IMG/VR virus record: IMGVR_UViG_3300045988_130501
Span: 1-37,722 of that record
Strand: one strand, 5' to 3'
Length of the DNA stretch: 37,722 bases
Source: a virus
Part shown: piece after piece, positions 1 through 37,722 of the stretch
Position numbering within the stretch: the first letter of the stretch is position 1
How the letters are laid out: every line of letters starts with the position of its first letter
Notes under the pieces: generated by a model
Database searches by the model: none
The model's input: only the letters and a program-made list of their open reading frames with translations
Told to the model about the DNA's origin: nothing
Made by a program: the position numbers and the translations under genes

Positions 1-89
1 ATCTTTTTTTAAAGTGTGAACATCTCCATATTTGTCAAGTTTTTCTTCTTCAATTGTTATTGTGTACCCTAATGCTCTTTTTAGCAAGG
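1..89. repeat. Terminal direct repeat (identical to 37634-37722); assembly overlap of a circular or circularly permuted genome
   Basis: Both window ends read atctttttttaaagtgtgaacatctccatatttgtcaag...ctttttagcaagg. The terS reading frame is continuous across the junction. Confidence 0.95.
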
Positions 90-3226: not shown

Positions 3227-3549
3227 TATTCCTCCACCTTTACAGCTAAATCGGCTTTTATTAAGTCATATATTAAATCATAATCTTGGCTTTGCAAAAT
3301 ATTAAAATAATAACTTCTTTTACCGCCATAAGTCATTCTATTAATTATTCTAGTTTTTTTATCTACCATAAAATTTATTTGATTTTCATATATTTTATTG
3401 TGTCCTGTATCTTCTTCACTACATTCACACTCATAGCAATAACAGGGAACAACTACTGTCTTTTTAGTTGTATAATAATCGTAATAACCTGTTTCAAACC
3501 CATACTTTTCTAATTCTTTTAAATCTATGTTATCTCTTATTTTAAGCAT
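3226..3549 (-). CDS. Hypothetical protein (107 aa, Cys cluster PCYCYECEC)
   Basis: ORF track; its TAA overlaps the ATG of the YopX gene. Confidence 0.55.
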   Translation of the reverse strand: MLKIRDNIDLKELEKYGFETGYYDYYTTKKTVVVPCYCYECECSEEDTGHNKIYENQINFMVDKKTRIINRMTYGGKRSYYFNILQSQDYDLIYDLIKADLAVKVEE

Positions 3550-4680: not shown

Positions 4681-5889
4681 TTACTTCACTTCCATTCTTT
4701 GTTTAGTCTTATCAAATATTACTGGAATTCTAACATTTCTTTTACCACCACGACATTTTGGAATTAAGAATCCTATTTCTTTAACATCAGCATTATCTTC
4801 TTTGTTTTCATCGTGTATAAGAATAATTGTGTCTGCTGTTTGCTCTATTTCTCCACTGTCTTTTAAATCTTGCATTGTTGGAGTATCACTACCATTTCTA
4901 TTTATTTGTGCTATTAAGAATATAGTGCAATCATAATCTTTGGTAATGTTGTTTAACTCTCTTACTGCCTCGCCAATTCTTTCTCTGTCATTTTGTCCCT
5001 GCTTACCAACTATGTAACCAGTGTAATCAATAAATACTATGCAATGCTCATCTCGTTGCTCTTTAATAATCTTATTTTTCATTGCATGAACTGTCTTACT
5101 ACCATTAATAACCTCATATTTATAATTGTAAATTTTATTAGCCACTTCCATTATTTTTTGGTCTTGATATTCTGTTTGTGGTTTATTAATATCGGCAATC
5201 GGAATATTTGCCTCAATTCCTAACATTCTTTCATAAACTTCTTCTTCGGTCATTTCCATATTGAAATAAATACATTTATATTCTTTTGCTAAGTCACAGA
5301 ACAAATTAAGTGCTAATGCTGACTTACCTTCACTTGGCCTTGCTCCAATAACATTGACAGTTTTCTTTTTTATTCTCAACTTTTCATTTAAAGCCCAGAA
5401 CCTTGGGAATTTTATTATCTTTTCTCTATTTCTAATCATTCTAATCATTTCTTCTGGAGTTACTTTGTTATTTTGCTTAATAACCATAACTTCGTTTGAA
5501 ATTTTATTAATGTTTTCTACAAGTTCATCAAGTTCAATTTGTTTATTGGAATATTTTTTTATCTCTTGCTTAATTAAATCATCTTTGTGTTGGTCGATTA
5601 ATTTTTGTTGATATTCATAAAACATTGCTGGAGTTGGTAACAAATTAATTTTATCAAGAAAATATTCTATAAATTGATTTTTTTCATAATCAGTTTTTAA
5701 TTCACTAACTATCAATGTTAAATCTAATTTTTTATATTTTTTATAAACTTCTTTTAAAAGCAATAGAACTCTTTTGTTGTATGTATTTTTAAAACAGTCT
5801 AAATCAATAAACAATTCTTCTATCAAACTGTCTTTCAAAAACAAACAACACATTAAGTTACTTTCAATTTCATAATCATATTGTTTCAT
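4681..5889 (-). CDS. Replicative DNA helicase, DnaB family
   Basis: Walker A GARPSEGKSALALN, Walker B IVFIDYTGY, and LIAQINRN. An N-terminal DnaB-N-like region is present. Confidence 0.85.
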   Translation of the reverse strand: MKQYDYEIESNLMCCLFLKDSLIEELFIDLDCFKNTYNKRVLLLLKEVYKKYKKLDLTLIVSELKTDYEKNQFIEYFLDKINLLPTPAMFYEYQQKLIDQHKDDLIKQEIKKYSNKQIELDELVENINKISNEVMVIKQNNKVTPEEMIRMIRNREKIIKFPRFWALNEKLRIKKKTVNVIGARPSEGKSALALNLFCDLAKEYKCIYFNMEMTEEEVYERMLGIEANIPIADINKPQTEYQDQKIMEVANKIYNYKYEVINGSKTVHAMKNKIIKEQRDEHCIVFIDYTGYIVGKQGQNDRERIGEAVRELNNITKDYDCTIFLIAQINRNGSDTPTMQDLKDSGEIEQTADTIILIHDENKEDNADVKEIGFLIPKCRGGKRNVRIPVIFDKTKQRMEVK

Positions 5890-6523
5890 AGACTACACTC
5901 TCTTTTTTATTATCATTTTCTTTTTTTGGTGGATAAAACTCTCTATAGCCATTTTTAATAGCTTTTTTTATAATTTGTTCTTGTTCTTTTTTGCTATATG
6001 GTTTTAAAAATAATATAAGTTCATCTATAACATTTTGATTATTAGGTATTCTTATACTTTTTCTATAATTAAAATATTCTAATAATAATTCTATTATATT
6101 ATTTAATTTATTATTATTTATATATTCTAATATATTATTTTTATTTATATTTTCATTTTCATTTTCCATATGTTTAACATATGAAAAACATATGTTTTCA
6201 AAAGTTATCTTATTTTTTCTGTTTTCACTTCTTGATTTTGAGTAATTTCTTCTCTTATCAATTTCCTTTTGAAGCCTTATATTATAATATTTTCCATCAT
6301 TATCTTTTGTAAATTTATCAAAGATATCTTTATCATATCTTTTACATATGTTTAACATATCTTTTTCTGATAAATGCCCTTTTTGATGTTGTATGCACAA
6401 TAATTTTATGTATTTTCCTAATTGAATATCACTCATAAACATCGTACCAGTAAGAAAATCACTTGAATAAAATAAGAATGCTGGGTCTTTATTTTCATAT
6501 TGTTCTTTGTTTGATTCTTCCAT
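5876..6523 (-). CDS. DUF1376 (YdaU-like) replication-associated protein; its gene contains candidate origin iterons
   Basis: PAFLFYSSDFLTGTMFMSDIQLGKYIKLLCIQHQKG matches the DUF1376 signature. It lies directly upstream of and overlaps the helicase gene. Confidence 0.65.
   Translation of the reverse strand: MEESNKEQYENKDPAFLFYSSDFLTGTMFMSDIQLGKYIKLLCIQHQKGHLSEKDMLNICKRYDKDIFDKFTKDNDGKYYNIRLQKEIDKRRNYSKSRSENRKNKITFENICFSYVKHMENENENINKNNILEYINNNKLNNIIELLLEYFNYRKSIRIPNNQNVIDELILFLKPYSKKEQEQIIKKAIKNGYREFYPPKKENDNKKESVVYETI
6167..6194. repeat. Iteron array A1: three CATATG units phased at 11 bp
   Basis: CATATG starts at 6167, 6178 and 6189. It adjoins an almost pure A/T tract inside the DUF1376 gene. 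Confidence 0.75.
6323..6361. repeat. Iteron array A2: four (G/C)ATAT(C/G) units phased at 11 bp
   Basis: GATATC at 6323, CATATC at 6334, CATATG at 6345 and CATATC at 6356. Confidence 0.7.
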
Positions 6524-6525
6524 TT

Positions 6526-6681
6526 TTATTCTCCTTTCTTAATTGGTATTAATTTTATGCAATCTTTATACATTTCCATATAAAACTTATTGCCCCATTT
6601 ATCAATTATTTGTTGTGGTATTCTTATTTTATTTGTTGTTGTTTCTGCGTTTTTTTGTAATCTTATAATTGGCTGTTCCAT
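6526..6681 (-). CDS. AbrB/SpoVT-like DNA-binding protein (51 aa; below the ORF-track cutoff)
   Basis: GGAGGTG SD then ATG 6681. MEQPIIRLQKNAETTTNKIRIPQQIIDKWGNKFYMEMYKDCIKLIPIKKGE has an IRIPQQI...IKLIP swapped-hairpin-type pattern. Confidence 0.55.
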   Translation of the reverse strand: MEQPIIRLQKNAETTTNKIRIPQQIIDKWGNKFYMEMYKDCIKLIPIKKGE

Positions 6682-6711
6682 TTTTTCACCTCCTATCTTT
6701 AACATAATTAA

Positions 6712-6786: not shown

Positions 6787-7395
6787 TTAAAATGGGAAAT
6801 CGTTTTCACTAAATTCAACAGTATTCCCAAAGTCGCTAAATGGTTCATTATTTTTGCTATTAATATATTCCTCGTAATCTACGTAAGAATTATCAAGTTT
6901 TTTAACTTTAGGAATTTTAATATTATCAACTTTATCAATACTTCTAAATTCTCTTAATTTATTGACAGTTTTTAGCTCTCCTGCTTGGCTCTCATATTCT
7001 TCCATTCCAAATACTAATCCTATTTTTTTGCCTGTTAATTGTTCCCAATTTTTGTTCCAATCAAATTGGCAACCATTAGAATTTTCATAAGCTGTAATAA
7101 ATGCCTTAAGCATTTTAACTTGGTTTTCTTCTTCCCCTAGTGGAACATATTTAATTGCTGAATTGCTCCATTTTCTATCAATTCTAGTGTCATTTTTATA
7201 TTGTTCTTTAAAATATTCAGGTTGCTTGTCATCTTTAGCAGTATCTACGCTAACTTTTAAAGAAGTCTTGCCACTTTGTGGGCTAGTATATTCTTCTGCT
7301 TTCATTATTATTCCTTTGTGACCACCTAATTCAATTGGAGTAAAATCAAATTCCATTACTTCTACATTATCATAATTGCTTGGTTTCTTTATCAT
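6787..7395 (-). CDS. DUF669-type SSB-like protein with an SSB-like acidic C-terminal tip
   Basis: FTPIELGGHKGIIMKAEEYTS...SLKVSV pattern. The C-terminus SENDFPF resembles the DDDIPF tail of SSBs. Confidence 0.55.
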   Translation of the reverse strand: MIKKPSNYDNVEVMEFDFTPIELGGHKGIIMKAEEYTSPQSGKTSLKVSVDTAKDDKQPEYFKEQYKNDTRIDRKWSNSAIKYVPLGEEENQVKMLKAFITAYENSNGCQFDWNKNWEQLTGKKIGLVFGMEEYESQAGELKTVNKLREFRSIDKVDNIKIPKVKKLDNSYVDYEEYINSKNNEPFSDFGNTVEFSENDFPF

Positions 7396-8828
7396 TATTT
7401 TTCTTCCTCATCTTTCTTTTCTTCTTCTTTATTTATTTCATAATATTCACAGATAGTATCATCTACTAATTTTAAATCATTGTCAATTAATTCTTCTTCA
7501 AACATTCCCATAGGTGTTTTAACAATATCATTTCCAGCTGTTTTAGTTCTAAATTGGAACTTGCCATTTTCATTAATTGCTCTTAATACTATTGTATAGA
7601 GTCCCTCAACGCAACATTGATTTGACAACATTTTTCCAACGGTCTTAACTCCTATATTTCCAAATTCATCAATTTCTTCATGGCTCATAAGATAGACTCT
7701 TTTATCTCCGTCAAGATTTTTAATAAAATCAATCAATTTCCAATAATTTAAAGCGATATCTGTAAACTTGCCATAACCTGTTTCTTTTGCCTTTTTCATC
7801 ATTTCCATAGTTAATAAATAATTACTATCATCTATAACTATAATATCTTTTGGTGTTTCTTGAATAAACTTTTTAATTAATTCATAATCACAACTTTCAA
7901 GCCCTGCTTGTCCCCCTTTAAAAGGTAATCTTTTTGCAAGCGGATTTACTAAACTATATTCTTCTTTCTTTAAATTTCTTAAACTGGCACTCTTACCACT
8001 ACCAGAGTGTCCTATAATTAATACTGGAATACATTTTCCCATTTTTCTTTCCCTCCTCATTTCTAGCATTAATTCTGCTTTTTCTTTTTCATAAGGTATT
8101 TGAACAACCTCATAATTGTCTTTATTTTCGGTTAAATATACTATTTCAGTTCTTAACACTGGAATACCTAACAACTCTTGCAATATGTATTTATAAATGC
8201 TTAATTGTATTTTATAATGCTCATAAGAATTATCTAACGTATCTCGAAATGGTATCATCATATATTTTTTATAAACTTTCTTATCAGGATTATCATAATA
8301 GCCTTCCATGTATGAGTTAGTTTTATAATCAACTATTACAACACCTTTATCAACTTTATCATAAAATAAATGGTCGATAGCCGAACTAATATTTGCCCAC
8401 TCAACACCAATTAATAATTCATCTTTGATGTGTATATATCGGTCTTTATAATCATTATAATAATTCAATGAATGATGTTTTATTTTTTCAACTACTTCAA
8501 GATATTCTTTTGAGTTATCAAAAGGTCTTAAATACCATTCTTCACCACTAAATAATGACTGAGTGTATTCATGTATTGTTGTACCTTTTTCACAACTAAA
8601 ATCACGTTTATAATGCCATTCTTCAAGTATTTTAGAAACTTCCTTATTTTGTTTTTGTGCTACCATTTCAGCAACTTTTTGCTCATCAAATTTATTAGCA
8701 TAAAGTCCAATAAGTGTAGTAACGCCAATCCCAACTCTTTTGCCATTACAATAATAAGTATGAGTATCTTCTTCAAAAGTATATTTATCAAACGCCTTTA
8801 ATTTTTGCTTAACTTCTTCAAGTGTCAT
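7395..8828 (-). CDS. Fusion protein: N-terminal PD-(D/E)XK (RecB/Cas4-like) nuclease plus C-terminal Sak4-like P-loop ATPase
   Basis: Nuclease motifs IDHLF, VIVDYKT and QLSIYKY. Walker A IIGHSGSGKSA and Walker B IIVIDDSNY. The probable ATG is at 8828 (MTLEEVKQ); the track ORF begins at TTG 8849. Confidence 0.65.
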   Translation of the reverse strand: MTLEEVKQKLKAFDKYTFEEDTHTYYCNGKRVGIGVTTLIGLYANKFDEQKVAEMVAQKQNKEVSKILEEWHYKRDFSCEKGTTIHEYTQSLFSGEEWYLRPFDNSKEYLEVVEKIKHHSLNYYNDYKDRYIHIKDELLIGVEWANISSAIDHLFYDKVDKGVVIVDYKTNSYMEGYYDNPDKKVYKKYMMIPFRDTLDNSYEHYKIQLSIYKYILQELLGIPVLRTEIVYLTENKDNYEVVQIPYEKEKAELMLEMRRERKMGKCIPVLIIGHSGSGKSASLRNLKKEEYSLVNPLAKRLPFKGGQAGLESCDYELIKKFIQETPKDIIVIDDSNYLLTMEMMKKAKETGYGKFTDIALNYWKLIDFIKNLDGDKRVYLMSHEEIDEFGNIGVKTVGKMLSNQCCVEGLYTIVLRAINENGKFQFRTKTAGNDIVKTPMGMFEEELIDNDLKLVDDTICEYYEINKEEEKKDEEEK

Positions 8829-8829
8829 C

Positions 8830-8955
8830 TTATTTTTTCCTTTCAGCAATAATTGACTTTAAATAAGAACTTAGCGACATATCTCTTTCTTTTGCCTCTT
8901 TTTGTAATTGCTCTTTGAGTTCACAACTAACTTTAAAGATTATTGTGTCTTTCAT
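8830..8955 (-). CDS. Ribbon-helix-helix (CopG/Arc-like) protein, 41 aa
   Basis: AAGGAGG SD then ATG 8955. In MKDTIIFKVSCELKEQLQKEAKERDMSLSSYLKSIIAERKK a beta strand is followed by two helices. Confidence 0.55.
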   Translation of the reverse strand: MKDTIIFKVSCELKEQLQKEAKERDMSLSSYLKSIIAERKK

Positions 8956-10703: not shown

Positions 10704-10779
10704 TGGAGGGCGAAGTGAGATTTGAACTCACGATATGGAAGTTGCAGTTCCACTTCTTTAGCCACTTGAATATTCGCCC
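10704..10779 (-). tRNA. tRNA-Cys (anticodon GCA), CCA encoded
   Basis: Folds by hand into a cloverleaf. Acceptor GGGCGAA/UUCGCCC, anticodon arm UGGAA-CUGCAAC-UUCCA, T arm GUGAG-UUCAAAU-CUCAC. The U73 discriminator and A13-A22/G15-G48 features are typical of bacterial tRNA-Cys. Confidence 0.9.
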
Positions 10780-25221: not shown

Positions 25222-26217
25222 TTATGCAGTAGTTTTAGGACTAATCTTAATTCCTCTTAGAACTCCTGCTTTGTTAGTGTTCTTTAATGCAACACCAGCA
25301 ATAAGTTCTACTTCTCCATCTTTTACTGCTCCTGGTTCGTTTAAATCAGGCATATATGAATTGATTACTTTTGAACCAGTTGGGCTTACTCCGTGGAAAC
25401 CATCTAATCCAATTGTTACTGCATAAATATCAGTTTTTCCTTCTGCAGTTGTAGTTGCTGCAGTTTCAGGTATAATATCAACAGTACTAGTACCATTGTA
25501 ATATTTACCCATATCATACATAGGAATATCATTGTAAGTTTCAACCATTCTACCGAAATCATCTCTACTTCTACCATAATATCCTGCACGTCTTGCAGCA
25601 CTTCTCATTTTTGCAAGCATTTTATTGTTCATTAATAGCATTGTTGGTTTTCCATCTAATGCAGATAAGAAACCATCTACTTCATCAAGTAATGCGTTAT
25701 AATTAGAACCCATTAATGCGTCTGTTGATACATCAACTGCAGATGTAATCTCAGTTTCAGTACCAGTTAATAATTTATCTAGTCCATCAAATGTATTTAA
25801 TACACCTGTTCCAGCGCTTGCTTTATTACCGTTAATAACTAAATTATTAAAGTAATTTGAAGTTGCTTTTACTTTTTGCTCAGTTTGGAATGCTAATTCA
25901 TCAACTGCTCCAGATGTACCAATAAGTACACGGTCAATTTGAAATTTACCACCCATTACAACTGCCTTTGTAGTTTTTTCTTCTCTTTTTGCTTCTCCTG
26001 CAGTATATTCGCTATTTATTTCTCTTACTGCTGCAGTAGAAGGCGTTTTTAATTGGATATAACCATAAGTTAATGTAGAACCACCAGTTCCTGGAGAAAT
26101 TGCATTATCAAATACCATTTTGTCTAATAATAATGAACTTCTACGGAAAGTATCAACTACTTTTTGGTCTACCTTATCAGCCATACCAACTTTTGCTTCT
26201 GCTAATGTTATAGCCAT
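25222..26217 (-). CDS. Major capsid protein
   Basis: 331 aa, directly after the scaffold gene; the N-terminal MAITLAEAKVG...VVDTFRRSS style is typical of A118-type capsid proteins. Confidence 0.75.
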   Translation of the reverse strand: MAITLAEAKVGMADKVDQKVVDTFRRSSLLLDKMVFDNAISPGTGGSTLTYGYIQLKTPSTAAVREINSEYTAGEAKREEKTTKAVVMGGKFQIDRVLIGTSGAVDELAFQTEQKVKATSNYFNNLVINGNKASAGTGVLNTFDGLDKLLTGTETEITSAVDVSTDALMGSNYNALLDEVDGFLSALDGKPTMLLMNNKMLAKMRSAARRAGYYGRSRDDFGRMVETYNDIPMYDMGKYYNGTSTVDIIPETAATTTAEGKTDIYAVTIGLDGFHGVSPTGSKVINSYMPDLNEPGAVKDGEVELIAGVALKNTNKAGVLRGIKISPKTTA

Positions 26218-26233: not shown

Positions 26234-26803
26234 TTAATTACCGTATTTTTCTCTTAAAGCACCTGCTAAATCTTGTGCTTCATTTTCAGGGGCTTTATTT
26301 TGATGGTCGCCACCTAAATTGAAACCATTTTGTTGCTTGTTTTCTTGTTCAAATAAATAATCATGAGTAGTTTTAATACTCTTTAATTGTTCATCTAAAC
26401 CGCCAACAACATAATTGCCATCTTTTTCTTCATAAGTTAGTTTTTCGCTATCTAGAAGTTTCTCTAGCAATTTAATATCTTTTGCTTTAGAGTTTGTTAA
26501 TGCTTTATCTAACGCAATAGACTTTTTGAAAGTTTCCACTTCCTTACTTCCCTCGGCTTTTCCTAAATCGTATTGCTCTTGCTTGATAGCCTCGACATCG
26601 ATTTCTTCTAACTCTTTTATCTTTTCGTTCAAATTATTAACGACACCATCTTTTACTTTTAAGTCGTTTTTCAGTGTGGCTACCTCAGTTTTATGGCTTT
26701 CAATTAGTTCACCATTTTTTGCCATTAAAGTATCGACAATTTCTTTTTTTTTTGTTTCATCTTCAACAACATTAAGTAATTCTTCTAAAAACTTTCTATT
26801 CAT
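26234..26803 (-). CDS. Scaffolding protein (GP20-like)
   Basis: Acidic coiled-coil protein directly upstream of the capsid gene. Confidence 0.7.
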   Translation of the reverse strand: MNRKFLEELLNVVEDETKKKEIVDTLMAKNGELIESHKTEVATLKNDLKVKDGVVNNLNEKIKELEEIDVEAIKQEQYDLGKAEGSKEVETFKKSIALDKALTNSKAKDIKLLEKLLDSEKLTYEEKDGNYVVGGLDEQLKSIKTTHDYLFEQENKQQNGFNLGGDHQNKAPENEAQDLAGALREKYGN

Positions 26804-26908
26804 TTTCTTCCCTCCATACGATTTTATACGAGTTTTTCATCTCTTTGAATTTTAGAAAAGTTTCACTTTTACGATGTGATAATCATGGTATATTATCTAC
26901 CTGAATAG

Positions 26909-26937
26909 AGTATACCATATTTACTAAAAAAAATCAA
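26909..26937 (-). promoter_or_regulatory. Candidate promoter for the scaffold/capsid/tail operon
   Basis: In the minus sense: TTGATT, 17 nt, TGgTATACT. It is overlapped by the inverted repeat GGTATA...TATACC (26887-26916). Confidence 0.4.
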
Positions 26938-27040
26938 ATACACAAAATTAAGAGTAATATAAGAATAATATAAATTATAATATAAATAATTAATAATAAT
27001 AAAATAATAATAAATAATATATATTTCTATTTTCATTTTC

Positions 27041-27079
27041 CATATGTTATTCATATGTTTTTCATATCTTTAACATATC
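27041..27079. repeat. Iteron array B: four CATAT(G/C) units phased at 11 bp
   Basis: Units start at 27041, 27052, 27063 and 27074. The 20-mer attttcattttccatatgtt (27029-27048) is identical to 6155-6174. Confidence 0.75.
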
Positions 27080-27194
27080 TTTTTTTTAATTCCTTGATTT
27101 TCCCTTGCTTTTCAACAAATCTTGATTTTTTAAATGGCTATTTTTTAATTTTATATTTTTAAGCAAAATTAAATTTTTTTTGCAAAAAAAACAC

Positions 27195-27218
27195 AAAAAA
27201 ACAACCATTTAAGGTTGC
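27195..27218 (-). terminator. Rho-independent terminator of the ORF-free unit
   Basis: In the minus sense: GCAACC-TTAAAT-GGTTGT followed by T7. Confidence 0.65.
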
Positions 27219-27780
27219 TTATAGTAAATATAAATAGGAATTGAACCTATTACAACTAGTTTTAAACGTTAGCACACCAGCTATATATTTACTTTGTATC
27301 TTTAATAGATACTATACTAATGATATAAAGGTTTCTAAATTAAACATCACGCTCAGTTTAATTCGTTGCGTTAGACCAAGTGTTTCAATTAACCTTTAAC
27401 TCGGTGTTATTGTTTATATATCATCAGTACACTACCTGTTAAAGGTAGTACCACTACTCTATATTATTCACTTAACACCAACGAAAGAAATTAAGTTTTC
27501 ATATATTTCGTGTAGACGACTTCGCTCGTTGTCTAGGGTATTAGTCGTTTTCCCTACCTCTAAAATAAGATTCAATACTTAACTTTGACATGTCAGCCAT
27601 TAATTCTTTACAAACACAGGATTTTATGTGTTTTCTTCACATTTCAGTGCCTTATAGACACCAACAGAACAAAATTTAAAGGCGTAAGAAAAGAAAAATA
27701 ATTAAAGCCAATAAATATTGCTATGTTGCTACCTATAAAGGTAACAAGCAAGGAAATTGTAAAAACACTTTTTCCACTAC
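27195..27780 (-). ncRNA. Candidate large structured ncRNA (~585 nt), family unassigned (ROOL/GOLLD-like?)
   Basis: Bounded by a near-consensus promoter and an intrinsic terminator. It has no plausible ORF, contains many hairpins and a 9-bp long-range helix, and is richer in G+C than its flanks. Confidence 0.55.
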
Positions 27781-27784
27781 ATTA

Positions 27785-27813
27785 ATTATATCACATTAAT
27801 TTAGTTTTTGCAA
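27785..27813 (-). promoter_or_regulatory. Sigma-A-type promoter of the ORF-free unit
   Basis: In the minus sense: TTGCAA, 17 nt, TGaTATAAT. It starts immediately after the stop codon of the minor capsid gene. Confidence 0.6.
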
Positions 27814-28893
27814 TTATTTATTGTATTTTGCAACCCAAGTTTTATCGTAATCAACTTCTAAACCTTTGCTTTTAGAATACTGCCTATATTTCATCTGACT
27901 ATTCCTTAGTTCTTTTTTCTTTTTGCCCAATATATCAGTATTATTTGTTCCTTTTAATGATAAGATTTCTTTCTTTTTACTTCTAACAGCTCTTGCATAA
28001 TAATTTTGTTGCTGTCGTTCATTATAATTTTTTGTTATTTCTTGAATAGTTCCATGTTCATTCCCAAATATAGTTTTTTGCTTTTTGTTGTCAAACTCAG
28101 GTCGCCAATCATAATTTACAATATGGTTGCAATTAAATTCTTCAGTAAGATATTCATACTTTTTAAATTCTTTTAAACTCATAATAACATCATCAATGGG
28201 ATGATGACTAGGACGACAGGTAGGACTATGCCCTATAACGACACAATTAGCCCCTATTTCATCGCCAACTTGCTTGGCAATATCATTAGCTGTTTGAGTT
28301 AAACTTGTCATTAGATTGCGTTTAACAGCCACTTCAAGAGATGTATTTCTTCCCACTTTATCTTTTAAAGTTATTCCTTTTTCAGCAAGTGCATTTATAG
28401 TGCTTTTCATTGCACTAGAATAATCAAAAGAACCACTTGCAACTTTAGTATATAAATCATCTAAAGCATTGATATAGGCTTTTTTGCTAAAAAATGCTAT
28501 TGATTTAGTCATATTCTTTAAATCTTTGTCGGTTCTTCTATAAATACTATCAACTAGAGTTTGCACTTCTTGACTTATTTCATAATCTAGTCCTTTAGCC
28601 TCGTAAGTGTCTTTATAGCCTTTCATTTGCTCGTTTTGTAATTCTTCAAATAATTGTAGTAATTGTTTCTTTCGCTCCCTAGAAAGCCCATTTGCCTTAT
28701 TTAAAGCCTCATTAAATACTTCTTTGCCACCTTGCCTAGCAAGAACTCTCATTTGTGCTTTAGTAAATGAAGATATATCCTCATTTTGTTGTAACTTCTT
28801 AATTATTGATGATGTTAAGTCCTGATTTAATTTGCTAAAAATTTCAACAACTTTGTTTTTTTCAAATTCACTCATTCTTTGTGGTGTTATCAT
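27814..28893 (-). CDS. Minor capsid protein 2 (head morphogenesis, SPP1 gp7/Mu F-like role)
   Basis: 359 aa. The central NLMTSLTQTANDIAKQVGDEIGANCVVIGHSPTCRPSHHPID pattern is typical of Phage_min_cap2-type proteins. Confidence 0.65.
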   Translation of the reverse strand: MITPQRMSEFEKNKVVEIFSKLNQDLTSSIIKKLQQNEDISSFTKAQMRVLARQGGKEVFNEALNKANGLSRERKKQLLQLFEELQNEQMKGYKDTYEAKGLDYEISQEVQTLVDSIYRRTDKDLKNMTKSIAFFSKKAYINALDDLYTKVASGSFDYSSAMKSTINALAEKGITLKDKVGRNTSLEVAVKRNLMTSLTQTANDIAKQVGDEIGANCVVIGHSPTCRPSHHPIDDVIMSLKEFKKYEYLTEEFNCNHIVNYDWRPEFDNKKQKTIFGNEHGTIQEITKNYNERQQQNYYARAVRSKKKEILSLKGTNNTDILGKKKKELRNSQMKYRQYSKSKGLEVDYDKTWVAKYNK

Positions 28894-33003: not shown

Positions 33004-34687
33004 TATTAACCTCGCTTTCACTTGCTTTTGCTGTTTCCAATGCTGTTAATCTGTTATTTATGTCTATAAGTTCCTGTTTTAATGCCTTTTCATTTATTTG
33101 TAAGTTTTGAACCGTTTTAGTAAAGTTTCTATAATATTTTGCATTAATTTGTGGTAGTAAATCACTATCAGTAAATATGTTTGTAATCTCATCATAAGAT
33201 AAAGGCATATCTACTATTCCTAAATCGACTTCGTATGGTTTTTCTAACGCATAATATACTTCTACAGGATGTGTTGATAGCCAATTGGTTAGCCCATTGC
33301 TTGAAACTTCTTCAAGTCTTGATTGTAAAATCTTTATTTGCAATAGATTGTTATTCGAACCACCAGTAGAAATATTTTCTGAATTACTTGTCCAACCATT
33401 AGGCTTATAAATAAATTTATCAGAAACCATTGTTGAACTTGACTTGATAGCAGTTCCTATATTAAATTGTGCAACAAATTTATCATCATTAATCACTCTT
33501 GAATAGCTAATTGGTTGAGTTCCATTTAAAACAGTCTTACTAATAATCTTGTTTAGTATTAAATGATGTTTTCCGTCCTCTTTATAAACTACCTTTAATG
33601 TATCTTTATAAGTGCCATCTATTTTGGCTACAAATTCTCCTTCTGGAAGGTTGGCAGTTATGACACTTTCAAGATAATTTTCTTCTGTTTCATCTTTTCC
33701 ATTATTACTAGTCACACTCAAACTATCCGTTATTGTTTTAATTTCTTGTGGATAATCAGGTGAAGGTGTTGCTTGTTGTTTGCAAACACCCTCAATACTT
33801 AATTCTTGTAATTCTGCCCAAGCACTATCTTGAACATTGATAAAACTGTCGCTTGCTGTTCCTGTTTCAAGAATATCATTTTTAACTCGTTCTAATTCGT
33901 TTCTTGTTTTTTTAGCCCTGCTGTCTACTTCATCTAGTTGTTCTTTTGTAACTTCGCCATTCGTAACATCAAAAGTTGTTTGAGTTCCGTCAGTATAATG
34001 AATAGCATAAGTATCTACGTTTTCTACTGTTGATACTTTTTCGATGTTTTTGATTCCGTTTCCTGTATCACCTTTTAATTCAACAAATTGATAAGCCGTT
34101 TCTTTAGAATTTTTAACACCTAGTTTAGTGCCATCCCATTTGTAATTAAAATCAGCACCGTCAAAGTCGCCATTGTCAACTTGTGCTTTTAAGTTGCTTA
34201 TGTATTCTTCCCTTGCATTTTCATTTTGTTGTCTAGTGGTTTCTTGATTTTGTCTGATTTCTTCATCTTTAGTAACTTGTTCATTTAATTCAGTTACTTT
34301 TTGAATTAATTCATCTAAAATTACAACTTTAGGCTCGTCTGGCTGGATATCATCATCACAAATAATAGCATTTTCAATATAAATTTTCAAAATTGATGTT
34401 CTAGCCACAATTTCATCTTCATTTTCAATTTTAAAAAAAGCAATAGACATTTCTAATTCATTATATTGTGTCATATCTCTTGTTAAAGTCAATGTGTTAT
34501 CTGTTATGTTGTCAAAGCTTTTTGCAAAAGTCTTGTCATTAGCTTTAAAACAAGCTTTTCTACCAAAGTCTTTGTATTCTTCAGGTATTTCAAATTGTAA
34601 TTTTTCAATTTTATTTTCTTCTAAGTATCCAACAACCAAACATGATACATTTAATTTCCTGCCATCTTCAATTTTAATTATCTTCAT
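32984..34687 (-). CDS. BppU-N-like / coiled-coil fibre or receptor-binding-type structural protein (567 aa)
   Basis: The N-terminal ~110 aa resemble the Ig-like BppU_N/tail-fibre N-domain pattern (..SILKIYIENAI). They are followed by a Gln/Glu-rich coiled coil, a globular region and a C-terminal coiled coil. GGAGG SD; overlaps the portal stop by 14 nt. Confidence 0.4.
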   Translation of the reverse strand: MKIIKIEDGRKLNVSCLVVGYLEENKIEKLQFEIPEEYKDFGRKACFKANDKTFAKSFDNITDNTLTLTRDMTQYNELEMSIAFFKIENEDEIVARTSILKIYIENAIICDDDIQPDEPKVVILDELIQKVTELNEQVTKDEEIRQNQETTRQQNENAREEYISNLKAQVDNGDFDGADFNYKWDGTKLGVKNSKETAYQFVELKGDTGNGIKNIEKVSTVENVDTYAIHYTDGTQTTFDVTNGEVTKEQLDEVDSRAKKTRNELERVKNDILETGTASDSFINVQDSAWAELQELSIEGVCKQQATPSPDYPQEIKTITDSLSVTSNNGKDETEENYLESVITANLPEGEFVAKIDGTYKDTLKVVYKEDGKHHLILNKIISKTVLNGTQPISYSRVINDDKFVAQFNIGTAIKSSSTMVSDKFIYKPNGWTSNSENISTGGSNNNLLQIKILQSRLEEVSSNGLTNWLSTHPVEVYYALEKPYEVDLGIVDMPLSYDEITNIFTDSDLLPQINAKYYRNFTKTVQNLQINEKALKQELIDINNRLTALETAKASESEVNNDIPVE

Positions 34688-36137
34688 TTCCTACCTCCAA
34701 TTTTGAACTTGTTAAACTATCTTCTTCATTGATTAAAGCAAGTTCTTTTTTTGCATCTTCTTCACTCATTCCATAGAATTTCATTAAGTAACCTACTTTG
34801 CTTCTTAGACCCATAGACATTTCGTTTCTATATTCTTCTTTTTGGTCTTCTTCGCTATTTAAGAAACCGTCTTTGTCAACTAAATTAATTGTATCGTTTT
34901 CATCTACATTTTCATTAAAGAATAATCTTCCAATCATTAAAATACTTCTAACAATTCCAACGGTATATTTATTTAAAGCCGAACGGTGTTTTTTAGCATT
35001 TCCAACAAGGTCTTTATTATCTAATATAGCTTGTGTTGCTGTAACAACTCCACCCTGCTCAAACTTATAATAAGCCTTCCCTAGCCCACTTTTGAAAGCA
35101 AGTATATTAAGTGCTAAGTTTATCCCGTTTTCATTCTCAGTTTCCCTTAAATCAGGGTTATATTCGTGTACTAGTGTTTCAGCATTGACATCAACTTCGT
35201 CTCCAACTATTTGGAATTGTTGCTTAGTAATATCATCTGGATATATTGGAACTTCTTGAACTACAACTTCGCCTGTTTCTTCATCTGTATATGTTTGCGT
35301 ATAATATTTCGTTAATTTCTTATTGTAAAATACTTTCTTACCACCTAAATAAAAGTCTTTCATAAAGTTGTTATAGACAATATCTACACCTTGCAATTGG
35401 TCTATTGCGTTTGCATAAACACTAATACCAAGCCCATTGTTTTCTTTAATGTTATTTACTATTCTAGGCATTAATAAATTGAATAAAGGAACACTTGAAC
35501 CTGTTTCATATTCTTCAACAATACCCTCGTTTTTAACCTCGTTGCCTTGTTCATCAATGTATTTATTGTGTATATGGTATCCATCTCTTTTTAATTCGTG
35601 AATTTCAATGTAAAAAGCATTTTTGTTATTAATAATACTTTTTGAAACAAAAGCAACATCAGTTATTACACCATCAATTATTTTCAAAGGTATTATTTGA
35701 CTAGCATTTACACTAACTAAATTCAAAGTAGTATTTTCATCAGCAATTATTTTTTTATTAACTATTTTAGCATTTTTAATTCTTACAATAGTTCCACAAG
35801 TACCACTCCAAAAAGCGGTTTCAATATTATCCGGTATTTTATCATTAAATTCTAGTTTTTCAAGCCACTTGTCAATAAAAACTTGATTTTGTTTGTTTTT
35901 ACAAACTATCCCATCTCTTTCAGTATAAAGAATACTGCTCCAGTCCTCACATAGCCTTTTAGCCATGCCAAGTTTAAACAATTCTCTTTTATCACCATTT
36001 TGGTCATGGTATTCATGAAATTTTTTTACATAATTTTCATACCATTCTTTCCATAATTCAACATAACCATAATAGCTTGTACTAGGATTGTAACCTAGCG
36101 TTCCTAAATATTTAATTACAACATTATTACTATCCAT
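34674..36137 (-). CDS. Portal protein (A118-type)
   Basis: 487 aa immediately after terL; AGGAGG SD. N-terminal region VELWKEWYENYVKKFHEYHD... Confidence 0.8.
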   Translation of the reverse strand: MDSNNVVIKYLGTLGYNPSTSYYGYVELWKEWYENYVKKFHEYHDQNGDKRELFKLGMAKRLCEDWSSILYTERDGIVCKNKQNQVFIDKWLEKLEFNDKIPDNIETAFWSGTCGTIVRIKNAKIVNKKIIADENTTLNLVSVNASQIIPLKIIDGVITDVAFVSKSIINNKNAFYIEIHELKRDGYHIHNKYIDEQGNEVKNEGIVEEYETGSSVPLFNLLMPRIVNNIKENNGLGISVYANAIDQLQGVDIVYNNFMKDFYLGGKKVFYNKKLTKYYTQTYTDEETGEVVVQEVPIYPDDITKQQFQIVGDEVDVNAETLVHEYNPDLRETENENGINLALNILAFKSGLGKAYYKFEQGGVVTATQAILDNKDLVGNAKKHRSALNKYTVGIVRSILMIGRLFFNENVDENDTINLVDKDGFLNSEEDQKEEYRNEMSMGLRSKVGYLMKFYGMSEEDAKKELALINEEDSLTSSKLEVGNEDN

Positions 36138-36138
36138 T

Positions 36139-37455
36139 TTATCCTCCTAAATTTGTTTTTAATAATATTTTATACCAATTTTCAACACTGTAATTGTAAG
36201 CGTCCAAAGTATCTACATCAAAAGTCCCGTCATCAACGTATCGGTCATCATCAGCATTTGGGTCTTGTACTGCCTCTTGTAATGAAGTAACAATCCCCTC
36301 TGTGTTATTTTCAACAAACTTAATCTTACTTAACATCATAAGCATATTTATAGCATAAATACGACTTGAAATAGGTGTCTTAATACTGTCTTTAATTGGT
36401 ATGTGTAAATGTAACTCGTCAAGTGCCTCTTGTAAAGCACTTATAAGTATCTGCTCGGCACAATCAGCCCATATATAGTCTATGTGTCCATACTTCTCAA
36501 TAATAAACAAAATATGCTCTTTAAATGCCTTTTTAAGTTGTTTCAATTTTTTGTGAATATCATCTATAATTTCAGTCCTATCGCTTCGCAAAACTGTTAT
36601 TCCTGTATAACTTCGTGGAATAGAGCTTGTTACAAATGAGTGAGCCGAGCCATTTCCACCAAAGTCAACTCCAGTAGAAATAATACCGCCACTACAACTA
36701 GGCACTAAAAAGTCTTTTTCTCGTTCTATTATTGGTGTGAATAAGAAACTCTCGTTTGCTACTCTTTTACCTAGAATATCTCGTTTGTACCAAATAGACG
36801 TCTTGTCATAAGTGCTTAACCTTTGTTTTAACTTTTCATCACTAATAGATAAATTATCAAATATATTAAACTCTTCATAATTAAAGCCATAATTAGGGTT
36901 TTCTCTCTGCTGTTCTTCGTGAAAAGCCAAGTATTCAGTATAATACCAATGCTTAGGACTTTTAGGGTTTAAATCGTGAAATATCTTTCTATCATCACTT
37001 GATAAAGTTCTATCTTCAACTTCTTTTAAAAATGATGGGTCACACTCGTTTGCTTCGGTAACATAAGCCATTCCGTAAGTATTACCTTTGATAGTCTTGT
37101 AAGAGTTAGCCTTGCCACCACCTGCAACTAATAAAATTTTTTCTTTTCCATCAGCGGTATTTATATAAATAGCGTCTCTGTTCTTATATTTTCCCTCTCG
37201 ACATCGTCCAGCAAAATAATTAAGTATCCCATATCCATCACAATCAATTATATTAAGCCTTGCCGACGTGCTATCATATCCAGCAATCAAAAATAATTTG
37301 TTTGGGTGGTTTTCTAGTGCTATGCAAAAGGCTAGCCCATTTGTAACGTTCTTGCCACCACGTTTGCCACCATGAGCAACATTAAACCAACTTGTTTGGC
37401 ATTTTCTAATATAATCAGCCTGTTTTTCACAAAGAGGTGCTAATTCATTGAACAT
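36139..37455 (-). CDS. terL: Terminase large subunit (PBSX-type)
   Basis: WFNVAHGGKRGGKNV (P-loop-like) ... AYVTEANEC ... C-terminal nuclease region. ATG 37455 has a GGAG SD; the track start 37464 is GTG. Confidence 0.85.
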   Translation of the reverse strand: MFNELAPLCEKQADYIRKCQTSWFNVAHGGKRGGKNVTNGLAFCIALENHPNKLFLIAGYDSTSARLNIIDCDGYGILNYFAGRCREGKYKNRDAIYINTADGKEKILLVAGGGKANSYKTIKGNTYGMAYVTEANECDPSFLKEVEDRTLSSDDRKIFHDLNPKSPKHWYYTEYLAFHEEQQRENPNYGFNYEEFNIFDNLSISDEKLKQRLSTYDKTSIWYKRDILGKRVANESFLFTPIIEREKDFLVPSCSGGIISTGVDFGGNGSAHSFVTSSIPRSYTGITVLRSDRTEIIDDIHKKLKQLKKAFKEHILFIIEKYGHIDYIWADCAEQILISALQEALDELHLHIPIKDSIKTPISSRIYAINMLMMLSKIKFVENNTEGIVTSLQEAVQDPNADDDRYVDDGTFDVDTLDAYNYSVENWYKILLKTNLGG

Positions 37456-37722
37456 TATCTTCACTCCTGTTTGGTTTAGGGTTGTTTAATAAATCAGCTA
37501 TGTTAGATACGTTTTTGTTTATTTTTTGTAAATCATCAGCAGTTTTAACAACTTCAACCTTTTCTCTCCATTGTTCTTTTCTCCTGTTCTTTAACCAGAA
37601 TATCATTGCTGCTGTATCTCCTGGAACGTGAACATCTTTTTTTAAAGTGTGAACATCTCCATATTTGTCAAGTTTTTCTTCTTCAATTGTTATTGTGTAC
37701 CCTAATGCTCTTTTTAGCAAGG
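37445..37722 (-). CDS. terS: Terminase small subunit, C-terminal part (continues from bases 297..1 across the circular junction)
   Basis: ALLKRALGYTITIEEEKLDKYGDVHTLKKDVHVPGDTAAMIFWLKNRRKEQWREK, in frame with the 5' part. Confidence 0.85.
   Translation of the reverse strand, partial: LLKRALGYTITIEEEKLDKYGDVHTLKKDVHVPGDTAAMIFWLKNRRKEQWREKVEVVKTADDLQKINKNVSNIADLLNNPKPNRSEDNVQ
37634..37722. repeat. Second copy of the 89-bp terminal overlap
   Basis: Identical to 1-89. Confidence 0.95.

What the first reader, a model, noticed from the sequence alone, without database searches (positions are those of the whole stretch)
26940..27130. Second copy of the iteron/AT-tract element in the intergenic region upstream of the late structural operon
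Seen: four units (CATATG, CATATG, CATATC, CATATC) start at 27041, 27052, 27063 and 27074, again with exact 11-bp phasing. About 80 nt of pure A/T low-complexity sequence (about 26950-27030) precede them. The 20-mer attttcattttccatatgtt (27029-27048) is identical to 6155-6174. CTTGATTTT follows the array at both loci (6231; 27093 and 27121). A ~100-bp ori-like segment is therefore duplicated 21 kb away, between the terminator of the ORF-free RNA and the candidate scaffold/capsid promoter (26909-26937).

Inference, three options: a second origin; a site where the iteron-binding protein couples replication to late transcription; or a recombination-derived module boundary.
Basis: partly seen in the sequence, partly recalled or inferred. 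Interest (0 to 1): 0.65.

Follow-up and report, generated by a model that had tools for sequence, protein, structure and literature searches.

The report
Second origin-like site in phage genome
This gut phage carries a second copy of the replication-origin signals that lie inside its replication-initiator gene. The copy sits between its head genes, an arrangement known so far mainly from Bacillus phage SPP1. Sister phages with a different initiator carry a matching different copy at the same spot, so the site is very likely a working target of the initiator.

Summary
CATATS hexamers form 11-bp-phased arrays at only three places in the 37.6-kb circular genome. Two arrays (6167 x3, 6334 x3) lie inside a 215-aa replisome-organizer-like gene just upstream of dnaB. 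The third (27041 x4) lies in the gap between the minor-head and scaffold genes.

The two loci align colinearly over about 180 bp in the order iterons, shared 20-mer, A/T tract. Their A/T tracts are the two least stable duplex segments of the genome.

Sister phages give the key evidence. They have near-identical flanks but an unrelated initiator N-terminal domain, and they carry a different repeat (ATACCCTA/TAGGGTAT) at both loci. Six of six genomes are concordant, on two backbones.

The shared 20-mer falls in a 30-nt stretch that shows no synonymous variation across 55 initiator genes. One relative lacks the late element, so the element is accessory.

The best reading is an SPP1-oriR-like second origin or initiator-binding site. 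I could not decide whether it fires, blocks forks or modulates the adjacent late promoter. It is a new member of a known kind, of moderate interest.

The parts
27041..27084 (.). Late-region iteron array: four 11-bp units (CATATG, CATATG, CATATC, CATATC on +; GATATG x2, CATATG x2 read on the minus strand)
   Evidence: Invariant in 6 unique relatives except for a whole-unit 11-bp indel giving 3 or 4 units.
27029..27048 (-). Shared 20-mer. On the minus strand it reads AACATATGGAAAATGAAAAT, that is the last iteron plus GAAAAT repeats.
   Evidence: Identical to 6155-6174. It corresponds to the 30-nt stretch with zero synonymous variation in 55 initiator genes.
26945..27028 (.). A/T-rich tract, candidate DNA unwinding element; pure A/T run 26964-27026 (63 nt)
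   Evidence: the two least stable 80-bp duplex segments of the window are this tract and 6064-6143 (z = 4.5 each; the next best is 2.95). The tract is shared at 94% identity with sister phages of the other iteron type.
27085..27173 (.). Type-specific spacer of the exchangeable cassette. The whole cassette is 27025-27173. The spacer contains the two CTTGATTTT copies.
   Evidence: Not alignable with L073. 31 of 106 spacer columns (terminator end to first iteron) vary among close relatives, against 3 of 89 in the iteron/core block.
27199..27220 (-). Intrinsic terminator of the upstream ncRNA unit
   Evidence: Conserved in 10 IMG/VR contigs. Relatives show compensatory stem changes.
26909..26937 (-). 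Sigma-70-type promoter of the scaffold/capsid operon (TTGATT-17-TGgTATACT)
   Evidence: Retained in relatives with and without the element.
6167..6199 (.). Intragenic iteron array 2 (three CATATG, 11-bp phasing), inside the initiator gene at codons about 109-119
   Evidence: Conserved at the same gene position in most of 70 relatives.
6334..6366 (.). Intragenic iteron array 1 (CATATC, CATATG, CATATC; 11-bp phasing), codons about 54-63
6064..6154 (.). Intragenic A/T tract, which encodes the N/I/K-rich linker of the initiator
   Evidence: The homology break with the other initiator type lies at 6147/6148.
5876..6523 (-). 215-aa replisome-organizer-like initiator. The N-terminal domain is DUF1376-like. 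The C-terminal ~75 aa are homologous to those of the other initiator type. The stop codon overlaps the dnaB start.
4681..5889 (-). DnaB-like replicative helicase
   Evidence: phrog_19, E = 5e-63.
27197..27813 (-). Context: promoter (27813..27785) plus a ~590-nt structured non-coding RNA unit that ends at the terminator just upstream of the element
   Evidence: fold z-score -5.0.

Best explanation
The element at 26945-27173 is an accessory second copy of the phage's replication-origin signals. It is the analogue of oriR of Bacillus phage SPP1.

The primary origin lies inside the initiator gene (5876-6523). There, two phased CATATG arrays and an A/T tract sit at the junction between the N-terminal DNA-binding domain and the C-terminal domain.

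The late element repeats the downstream half of that origin in the same orientation. It has four CATATG/GATATG sites one helical turn apart, then the invariant CATATG-GAAAAT-GAAAAT core, then a 63-85-bp A/T tract. It sits between the terminator of an ncRNA and the promoter of the scaffold/capsid operon.

Inferred mechanism:
1. The 215-aa initiator binds the palindromic hexamers on one face of the helix, probably as dimers.
2. The resulting nucleoprotein complex either melts the adjacent A/T tract and loads DnaB (a second origin), or stays as a tight roadblock that stalls forks arriving from the primary origin.
3. A stalled fork would trigger the switch to recombination-dependent concatemer synthesis by the neighbouring Sak4-like/exonuclease protein and the candidate SSB. 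This is the role proposed for SPP1 oriR.

What is shown: the sequence architecture, its statistical reality, its conservation, and its co-variation with initiator type.

What is inferred: binding, melting, firing and fork arrest.

My split within this explanation: fires as an origin about 0.35, acts mainly as a bound barrier about 0.3. The two are not exclusive.
For: (1) The phased arrays occur only at the initiator gene and at this site: 7 phased pairs against 0.01 expected.

(2) The alignment is colinear over about 180 bp and scores 82 against at most 45 elsewhere.

(3) The two adjacent A/T tracts are the two least stable duplex segments of the genome.

(4) The host gene is an initiator.
- It sits directly upstream of dnaB and overlaps it.
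- It has DUF1376-like and weak replication-protein PHROG hits.
- Its C-terminal ~75 aa are homologous (E = 2e-5) to a 242-aa protein in the same position in a sister phage. That protein is a clear 'replisome organizer' (phrog_6251, E = 5e-41).

(5) Co-variation.
- Contig 3300032007_000244 has DnaB 98% and scaffold 96% identical to the window, but the unrelated 242-aa initiator.
- It carries TAGGGTAT/ATACCCTA repeats plus ATACATCTGTATCTGTAT both inside that gene and at the late site.
- Three genomes of each type are all concordant, on two different backbones.
- The homology breaks fall at the iteron/A-T-tract junction at both loci: 6147/6148 and 27024/27025.
- The small gene upstream of the initiator is 98% identical in both types, so it is not the specificity determinant.

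(6) Purifying selection. 3 of 89 columns vary in the iteron/core block, against 31 of 106 in the adjacent spacer. Unit number changes by exactly 11 bp.

(7) The shared 20-mer coincides with codons 118-129 of the initiator family. Third-position entropy there is 0 across 55 unique genes, against about 1.5 elsewhere.

(8) Iterons and A/T tract are present or absent together. Relatives without them keep the terminator and a promoter.

(9) Precedent in SPP1.
- oriL lies inside gene 38.
- oriR lies in the late region after gene 7 (minor head protein) and before the scaffold gene.
- Both consist of repeats plus an A/T-rich unwinding element, and both are bound by gp38.
- oriR-bound gp38 is proposed to stall forks (PMC6316719, PMC3485210, PMC5737612).
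- I confirmed the SPP1 layout in the sequence.
Against: - There is no experimental or read-depth evidence that the site is bound or fires.
- Contig 3300045988_100786 has a 100% identical initiator but lacks the whole element, so the element is not essential. That junction lies only about 50 nt from a contig end.
- The late copy lacks the upstream array 1 of the primary origin.
- In the second iteron type, repeat orientation differs between the two loci.
- GC skew gives no information, because all genes are on one strand.
- The initiator has no detectable sequence similarity to SPP1 G38P. The structure model was too poor to use.
- Other genes also differ between the compared phages, for example downstream of dnaB. 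The co-variation is therefore not strictly exclusive to the initiator N-terminal domain.
Confidence: 0.65

Rival explanations
1. Transcriptional coupling. The initiator binds the array to activate or repress the scaffold/capsid promoter about 100 bp downstream. This would tie late expression to the amount of initiator or to replication. The A/T tract would act as an UP-like or bendable spacer.
For: The element lies immediately upstream of the -35 of the head-operon promoter, with the A/T tract abutting it. The position upstream of a head-gene promoter is kept even when the downstream gene differs (L123 and L236). Co-variation with initiator type fits this reading as well.
Against: - The promoter persists, with a good extended -10, in relatives lacking the element (100786, 102451, 149307, 153122).
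- The copy includes the origin-specific features (the invariant GAAAAT core and the least stable A/T tract of the genome). A simple operator would not need these.
- The iterons are centred about 120-150 bp from the -35.
Confidence: 0.13
2. Initiator titration or handcuffing site. It would be an extra iteron cluster that sequesters initiator, or pairs with the primary origin, to limit re-initiation, as plasmid incA-type iterons do.
For: These are cognate iterons outside the primary origin, in the same orientation, and dispensable in one relative.
Against: - Control iterons of plasmids do not carry their own unwinding element. Here the A/T tract always travels with the iterons.
- A lytic-type phage has little obvious need for copy-number restraint. 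This point is inference.
Confidence: 0.1
3. Non-functional relic: a fragment of the initiator gene copied into a module junction by illegitimate recombination and now drifting.
For: The site is a mosaic junction. The element is an indel polymorphism bounded by an 8-bp direct repeat, TTTTGTGT, in the window.
Against: - Two unrelated iteron types each have a matching copy at the same site.
- The iteron cores and the 18-mer are invariant while the flanking spacer varies in 29% of columns.
- Spacer sequences, unit number and, in type 2, orientation differ from the intragenic copy. The late element is therefore not a recent verbatim duplicate.
Confidence: 0.06
4. Chance similarity of A/T-rich low-complexity DNA.
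For: The genome is 72% A+T. The reverse-complement control alignment also scores 65, through the A/T tracts.
Against: 7 phased pairs against 0.01 expected. The 20-mer is unique to the two loci. The element is conserved and co-varies in relatives.
Confidence: 0.01

Closest known systems
Bacillus phage SPP1 oriL/oriR, bound by replisome organizer G38P (gp38)
   Same: - The primary origin is embedded in the initiator gene, in the segment that encodes an Asn-rich linker.
- The second copy is intergenic in the late region, directly after the terminator that follows the minor-head-protein gene and upstream of the scaffold and major capsid genes.
- Both copies consist of direct repeats, then a nearly identical 20-30-nt stretch, then an A/T-rich unwinding tract.
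- A DnaB-type helicase gene lies downstream, and SSB and single-strand-annealing/exonuclease genes lie nearby.
(PMC6316719, PMC5737612, PMC3485210.)
   Different: - There is no detectable sequence similarity between the initiators or the head proteins.
- The repeats here are palindromic CATATG hexamers at strict 11-bp phasing, not AB boxes.
- There is no separate helicase-loader gene between initiator and helicase.
- The copies are 16.8/20.9 kb apart on a 37.6-kb circle, against 12-13 kb on 44 kb in SPP1.
- A structured ncRNA unit lies just upstream.
- The element is missing in one close relative and comes as exchangeable cassettes matched to two initiator types.
Phage lambda ori inside gene O (and the origins of lambdoid phages)
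   Same: Iterons followed by an A/T-rich region lie inside the initiator gene, between the DNA-binding N-terminal domain and the C-terminal domain that recruits the helicase. Specificity is exchanged as a module made of the N-terminal domain plus its iterons. This rests on established knowledge. The same modular break is seen here at 6147/6148.
   Different: Lambda has a single origin and no distal second copy. The O protein is only weakly related (phrog_678 'replication initiation O-like', E = 0.011, C-terminal part only).
Iteron-type plasmid origins and their control iterons (for example P1 incC/incA, pPS10, R6K)
   Same: Helically phased direct repeats are bound by a cognate initiator next to an A/T-rich unwinding element. 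Extra iteron clusters lie outside the origin. This rests on established knowledge.
   Different: Here the distal cluster carries its own unwinding tract and sits in a phage late region. Plasmid repeats are typically 17-22 bp, not 6-bp palindromic cores in 11-bp units.

Membership tests
Iteron-type replication origin (initiator-binding repeats plus DNA unwinding element) | Three or more direct repeats with helical phasing | tested here: met
   Four units at exactly 11 bp. Phased arrays occur only at three places in the genome.
Iteron-type replication origin (initiator-binding repeats plus DNA unwinding element) | Adjacent A/T-rich, easily melted tract | tested here: met
   26945-27024 and 6064-6143 are the two least stable 80-bp segments (z = 4.5 each). 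26964-27026 is the longest pure A/T run in the window.
Iteron-type replication origin (initiator-binding repeats plus DNA unwinding element) | A cognate initiator encoded by the same genome whose specificity matches the repeats | tested here: met
   Indirect evidence from natural co-variation. Two initiator types each have a matching repeat type at both loci, in 6 of 6 genomes.
Iteron-type replication origin (initiator-binding repeats plus DNA unwinding element) | Initiator binding and origin firing demonstrated | not testable with these tools
   This needs EMSA or footprinting, ChIP, 2D gels or marker-frequency data.
SPP1-type two-origin arrangement (oriL in the initiator gene, oriR in the late region) | Primary origin inside the replisome-organizer gene | tested here: met
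   Arrays at 6167 and 6334 and an A/T tract lie inside ORF 5876-6523. They are conserved in 61 of 70 relatives.
SPP1-type two-origin arrangement (oriL in the initiator gene, oriR in the late region) | Second copy of similar organisation in a non-coding stretch among the virion-assembly genes | tested here: met
   The element lies between the minor head gene (27814-28893) and the scaffold gene (26234-26803). SPP1 oriR lies between gene 7 and genes 8-11.
SPP1-type two-origin arrangement (oriL in the initiator gene, oriR in the late region) | Initiator homologous to G38P (Phage_rep_org_N) | tested here: not met
   BLASTP against SPP1 gene 38 gives E = 0.63 at best. Pfam gives only DUF1376-like hits. 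I therefore file this as an analogue, not as a member of the G38P family.
SPP1-type two-origin arrangement (oriL in the initiator gene, oriR in the late region) | Initiator bound at the second site stalls forks and triggers the theta-to-sigma switch | not testable with these tools
   This is only a proposed model, even for SPP1 (PMC3485210, PMC6316719).
DUF1376 (PF07120) domain proteins | Score at or above the Pfam gathering threshold (30.1 bits) | tested here: inconclusive
   The window protein scores 18.7 bits. Diverse family members score 23.3-31.9 bits, one of them above threshold, and all cover nearly the whole model.
Operator / upstream activating site of the late promoter | The promoter depends on the element | tested here: not met
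   Relatives without the element keep a consensus-like promoter directly after the terminator. Actual activity was not measured.

The most novel reading that the evidence does not exclude
The initiator's DNA-binding domain and a distal origin cassette are exchanged in concert. That would mean a two-site replication architecture is under selection in a group of gut phages. Natural variants with and without the element would then offer a direct test of the unproven SPP1 model, in which an initiator-bound second origin programmes the switch from circle to concatemer replication.

In addition, a 30-nt DNA core (CATATG followed by GAAAAT repeats) is invariant at synonymous sites. This holds across initiator genes from phages that were binned with very different bacteria. 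The core may be a previously unrecognised, universal melting or helicase-loading signal of this initiator family.
Probability: 0.3. Interest if true: 0.65.

Novelty: new member of a known kind. Interest (0 to 1): 0.5.

Why it matters
Two-origin phage genomes are known essentially from SPP1, and the role of its second origin is still only a model. This case shows the same layout arising with an unrelated initiator domain in uncultivated phages, one of which comes from a human-gut assembly.

It also adds evidence that SPP1 does not offer. There is a natural domain-swap series in which the distal site changes together with the initiator. There is a natural variant lacking the site. There is also an initiator family with over 2,000 detectable relatives, whose embedded origin could be located from sequence alone in many phage genomes.

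This gives annotators a rule for finding origins. It gives experimenters a tractable pair of cassettes to test.

Tried and rejected
- **Rfam:** gathering and E-value modes found no known RNA or cis element covering the array.
- **GC skew:** monotonic, because all genes are on one strand, so it says nothing about origin use.
- **Structure of the initiator:** the AlphaFold2 model had mean pLDDT 45, so I ran no fold search. A profile search of PDB sequences found nothing. NCBIfam found nothing useful.
- **Homology to SPP1:** BLASTP against G38P, gp7 and gp13 found no similarity.
- **Pattern CTATACCNNNNCTATACC in IMG/VR:** I reached the target contig through DnaB instead.
- **Search for a third cassette type:** a metagenome scan with the shared A/T tract recovered only the same two types.
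- **Host:** the genome-collection scan gave only three MAG hits from unrelated taxa and no host assignment. The only cultured relatives are Clostridium perfringens phages, at about 80% identity over 187 bp.
- **CTTGATTTT:** rejected as a meaningful shared motif.
- **Rejected readings:**
  - pac or attP site: the repeats co-vary with the initiator gene, I noticed no integrase gene (the genes were not all scanned), and the terminase genes are about 10 kb away.
  - Peptide-repeat artefact: an 11-bp period crosses all three reading frames.

Full report
**Context**

The window is a complete circular assembly. It has an 89-bp exact terminal overlap, which gives a genome of 37,633 bp. GC content is about 28%, and every gene is on the minus strand.

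Read on the minus strand, the gene order is as follows:

| Feature | Coordinates |
|---|---|
| Large terminase | 36139-37464 |
| Portal | 34674-36137 |
| Minor head protein | 27814-28893 |
| ORF-free gap (1,010 bp) | 26804-27813 |
| Scaffold | 26234-26803 |
| Major capsid | 25222-26217 |
| Tail and lysis genes | between capsid and tRNA |
| tRNA-Cys | 10704-10779 |
| Sak4-like / exonuclease protein | 7395-8849 |
| Candidate SSB (DUF669-like; weak SSB PHROG hit) | 6787-7395 |
| 59-aa ORF | 6526-6705 |
| 215-aa ORF | 5876-6523 |
| DnaB-like helicase | 4681-5889 |

The only cultured relatives are Clostridium perfringens phages, and they match weakly. One near-identical contig comes from a human-gut assembly.

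Yes. The four hexamers start at 27041, 27052, 27063 and 27074.

Of the 36 CATATS in the window, ten fall in three 11-bp-phased arrays: 6167 x3, 6334 x3 and 27041 x4. No other pair anywhere is 11 bp apart. That gives 7 phased pairs, against a mean of 0.01 in 300 composition-matched simulations.

The 20-mer occurs only at 6155-6174 and 27029-48, even when up to three mismatches are allowed.

The similarity is not confined to the 20-mer. Positions 6067-6239 align colinearly with 26946-27129 at score 82. The rest of the genome scores 27.0 +/- 4.6, with a maximum of 45.

The A/T tracts next to the two arrays are the two least stable 60-100-bp duplex segments of the genome (z = 4.2-4.6; the next best is about 3.0). 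The late tract holds the longest pure A/T run, 63 nt.

CTTGATTTT is present as stated. It also occurs elsewhere and is not conserved in relatives, so I discount it.

**What is locus 1?**

It lies inside the 215-aa ORF, whose stop codon overlaps the dnaB start.

Evidence that this ORF encodes an initiator:
- It gives a near-full-length but sub-threshold DUF1376 match.
- More diverged family members score 23-32 bits against a cut-off of 30.1.
- All its weak PHROG hits are replication proteins: primosomal, DnaD-like loader and O-like.

Sixty-one of 70 IMG/VR relatives have a phased ATAT-core array in the locus, and 41 have two. The arrays sit at the same two positions of the gene.

An 11-bp period crosses all three reading frames, so the repeats are a DNA signal and not a peptide repeat.

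In a codon alignment of 55 unique genes, codons 118-129 (CATATGGAAAATGAAAATGAAAATATAAAT) have third-position entropy 0. The value is about 1.5 elsewhere, and 0.9-1.0 at other conserved Glu and Asn codons. The search pattern that found these loci was degenerate at synonymous sites, so this invariance is not an artefact of ascertainment.

**The decisive evidence: co-variation**

IMG/VR contig 3300032007_000244 has DnaB 98% and scaffold 96% identical to the window. In place of the 215-aa gene it has a 242-aa gene that is a clear replisome organizer (phrog_6251, E = 5e-41).

The N-terminal parts of the two proteins are unrelated. Their C-terminal ~75 residues are homologous (30% identity, E = 2e-5), including the VYETI end.

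Inside the 242-aa gene, at the same relative place, lie TAGGGTATCAA x2, ATACCCTATGC, ATACATCTGTATCTGTAT and an A/T tract.

The late intergenic region of the same contig has ATACCCTATCT x2, ATACCGTAGGT and ATACATCTGTATCTGTAT. These are followed by the same A/T tract and promoter as in the window.

The concordance across genomes is:

| Initiator type | Genomes | Late array |
|---|---|---|
| CATATG type | window, 118293, 150927 | CATATG |
| Second type | 000244, 110108, 153982 | ATACCCTA |

That is 6 of 6 concordant. The genomes sit on two backbones, each of which carries both types.

Homology between the window and the sister phage breaks and resumes sharply:
- Replication module: 7447-6521 is 92% identical, 6520-6148 is unalignable, and 6147-4490 is 89% identical.
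- Late region: 27173-27025 is unalignable, and 27024-26235 is 94% identical.

At both loci the type-specific block therefore ends exactly where the A/T tract begins.

The small ORF upstream of the initiator is 98% identical in both types. It therefore does not determine repeat specificity.

In type 2 the repeat orientation differs between the two loci. Both cores (CATATG and ATAsssTAT) are palindromic or nearly so, which fits a dimeric binder.

**Selection on the late element**

Among six unique CATATG-type late elements, 3 of 89 columns vary in the block made of iterons, 18-mer and the start of the A/T tract. In the spacer towards the terminator, 31 of 106 columns vary. The only length change in the array is one whole 11-bp unit, giving 3 or 4 units.

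Fifteen assemblies carry the identical scaffold protein. The three shown have a late element identical to the window's and the same 1,010-bp gap.

**Presence and absence**

The ncRNA terminator is found in ten IMG/VR contigs. Five of them (102451, 149307, 153122, 169120 and 170415) have no iterons and no A/T tract after it. In three of these a promoter follows directly.

Contig 100786 has a 100% identical initiator. It joins the terminator tail directly to the promoter and lacks about 276 bp. In the window that stretch is flanked by TTTTGTGT direct repeats.

Iterons and A/T tract therefore behave as one accessory unit that is separable from the promoter.

One caveat applies. That junction lies about 50 nt from a contig end. 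An 8-bp overlap is nevertheless too short to create an assembly chimera; that last point is inference.

**Comparison with what is known**

The SPP1 literature describes the following (PMC6316719, PMC5737612, PMC3485210):
- oriL is embedded in gene 38.
- oriR lies in a late segment that interrupts the virion-assembly genes.
- Both have direct repeats and an A/T-rich unwinding element, and gp38 binds both.
- oriR-bound gp38 is proposed to stall forks and trigger the switch to concatemeric replication.

In the SPP1 sequence I confirmed that oriR lies just after the gene 7 terminator and before genes 8-11. I also confirmed that oriL and oriR share AAAGACAC-type repeats, a nearly identical stretch of about 30 nt, and A/T-rich DNA.

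The window shows the same logic and the same map position, between the minor head and scaffold genes. The proteins have no detectable similarity to their SPP1 counterparts. This is an analogue, not a homologue.

**Mechanism and verdict**

The element is most likely a working target of the phage initiator that is built like an origin. I put 0.65 on an oriR-type role. It would either be a second firing origin or a bound barrier that promotes recombination-dependent replication by the adjacent Sak4-like/exonuclease protein and the candidate SSB.

I give the rivals smaller shares:

| Rival | Confidence |
|---|---|
| Regulation of the late promoter | 0.13 |
| Titration or handcuffing of initiator | 0.10 |
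| Neutral relic | 0.06 |
| Chance | 0.01 |

The finding is a new member of a known kind. Its value lies in the natural swap series and in the family-wide invariant origin core.

Noticed in passing
window 27197-27813 (minus strand): This is a strongly promoted (TTGCAA-17-TGtTATAAT), terminated, ORF-free RNA unit of about 590 nt. Its fold z-score is -5.0. The same promoter and terminator bracket 496-656-nt versions in six other contigs. Three conserved motifs (for example ACTAyCTTTAACAGGTAGTGTACTGATGATATATAAA and CCTTTATATCATTAGTACAGTATCTATTAAAGATAC) alternate with variable inserts. No Rfam family matches. The unit also occurs in phages that lack the iteron element.
   Followed up: partly
window 27224-27292 (minus strand); L123 about 2470-2510: The ncRNA carries a tRNA-like 3' module, with a 7-bp acceptor-like stem AAATATA/TATATTT and a T-arm ATAGG-TTCAATT-CCTAT. 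It gives a weak tRNA-clan hit (19.5 bits) and ARAGORN does not call it. Relatives L123 and L236 carry a different tRNA-like piece (GGTGGTTCGAGTCCACC).
   Followed up: no
window 26817-26885 (minus strand): The 5' UTR of the scaffold gene gives a sub-threshold match to the GP20-b RNA motif (21.6 bits, E = 0.055, gathering score 36.2). The scaffold protein is PF06810 (Phage_scaffold). To my knowledge that is the former Phage_GP20 family, with whose genes this motif is associated.
   Followed up: no
window 6140-6174 (codons 118-129 of ORF 5876-6523); L001-L070: A 30-nt stretch (CATATG followed by GAAAAT repeats) shows no synonymous variation in 55 unique initiator genes that are otherwise 35-65% identical. 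The exact 18-mer occurs in more than 118 IMG/VR contigs. Three MAG hits fall in unrelated taxa (Fonsibacter, Ignavibacteriaceae, Bacteroidales).
   Followed up: partly
L048, L050, L054, L058 (about 3278-3350): In some relatives the second array has a 12-bp period instead of 11 bp. The iterons are then in frame and produce HMxx peptide repeats, for example KHMPEHMQQHMPKHMENENEN.
   Followed up: no
L259 11500-11560 (IMG/VR contig 3300006147_000072): An unrelated temperate-looking phage has three 11-bp-phased CATATG plus the same 18-mer in non-coding DNA. The site lies between the terminase module and a LexA/CI-like repressor gene. No DUF1376-like gene lies within the 14-kb locus. It may be another extragenic origin copy.
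   Followed up: partly
window 1-89 and 37634-37722: The window has an 89-bp exact terminal overlap, so it is a circular assembly of 37,633 bp. The two origin-like elements are 20.9 and 16.8 kb apart on the circle, roughly opposite each other.
   Followed up: yes
L237 / L071 (contig 3300045988_100786) versus window 26938-27213: A natural variant lacks the whole iteron/A-T element. The deletion ends fall in an 8-bp direct repeat, TTTTGTGT. The junction lies about 50 nt from the contig end.
   Followed up: partly
L072, L411, L421 versus window 27199-27220: The ncRNA terminator stem shows compensatory changes: GCAACC...GGTTG becomes ACAAAC...GTTTG.
   Followed up: no
L236 about 1050-1180: In contig 110108 the promoter after the element drives a small Cys-rich ORF (MKEYRCMCGKLLFKGKFKGIISIMCRHCKKLIEFHNLENQDK) instead of the scaffold gene. 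The ORF resembles Mu Com-type zinc-finger translational regulators. That resemblance is from memory and was not tested.
   Followed up: no
window 6526-6705 (minus strand): A 59-aa ORF upstream of the initiator contains IRIPQQII. This is reminiscent of AbrB/SpoVT-type looped-hinge-helix proteins, a resemblance from memory that I did not test. The ORF is 98% identical in phages with either initiator type.
   Followed up: partly
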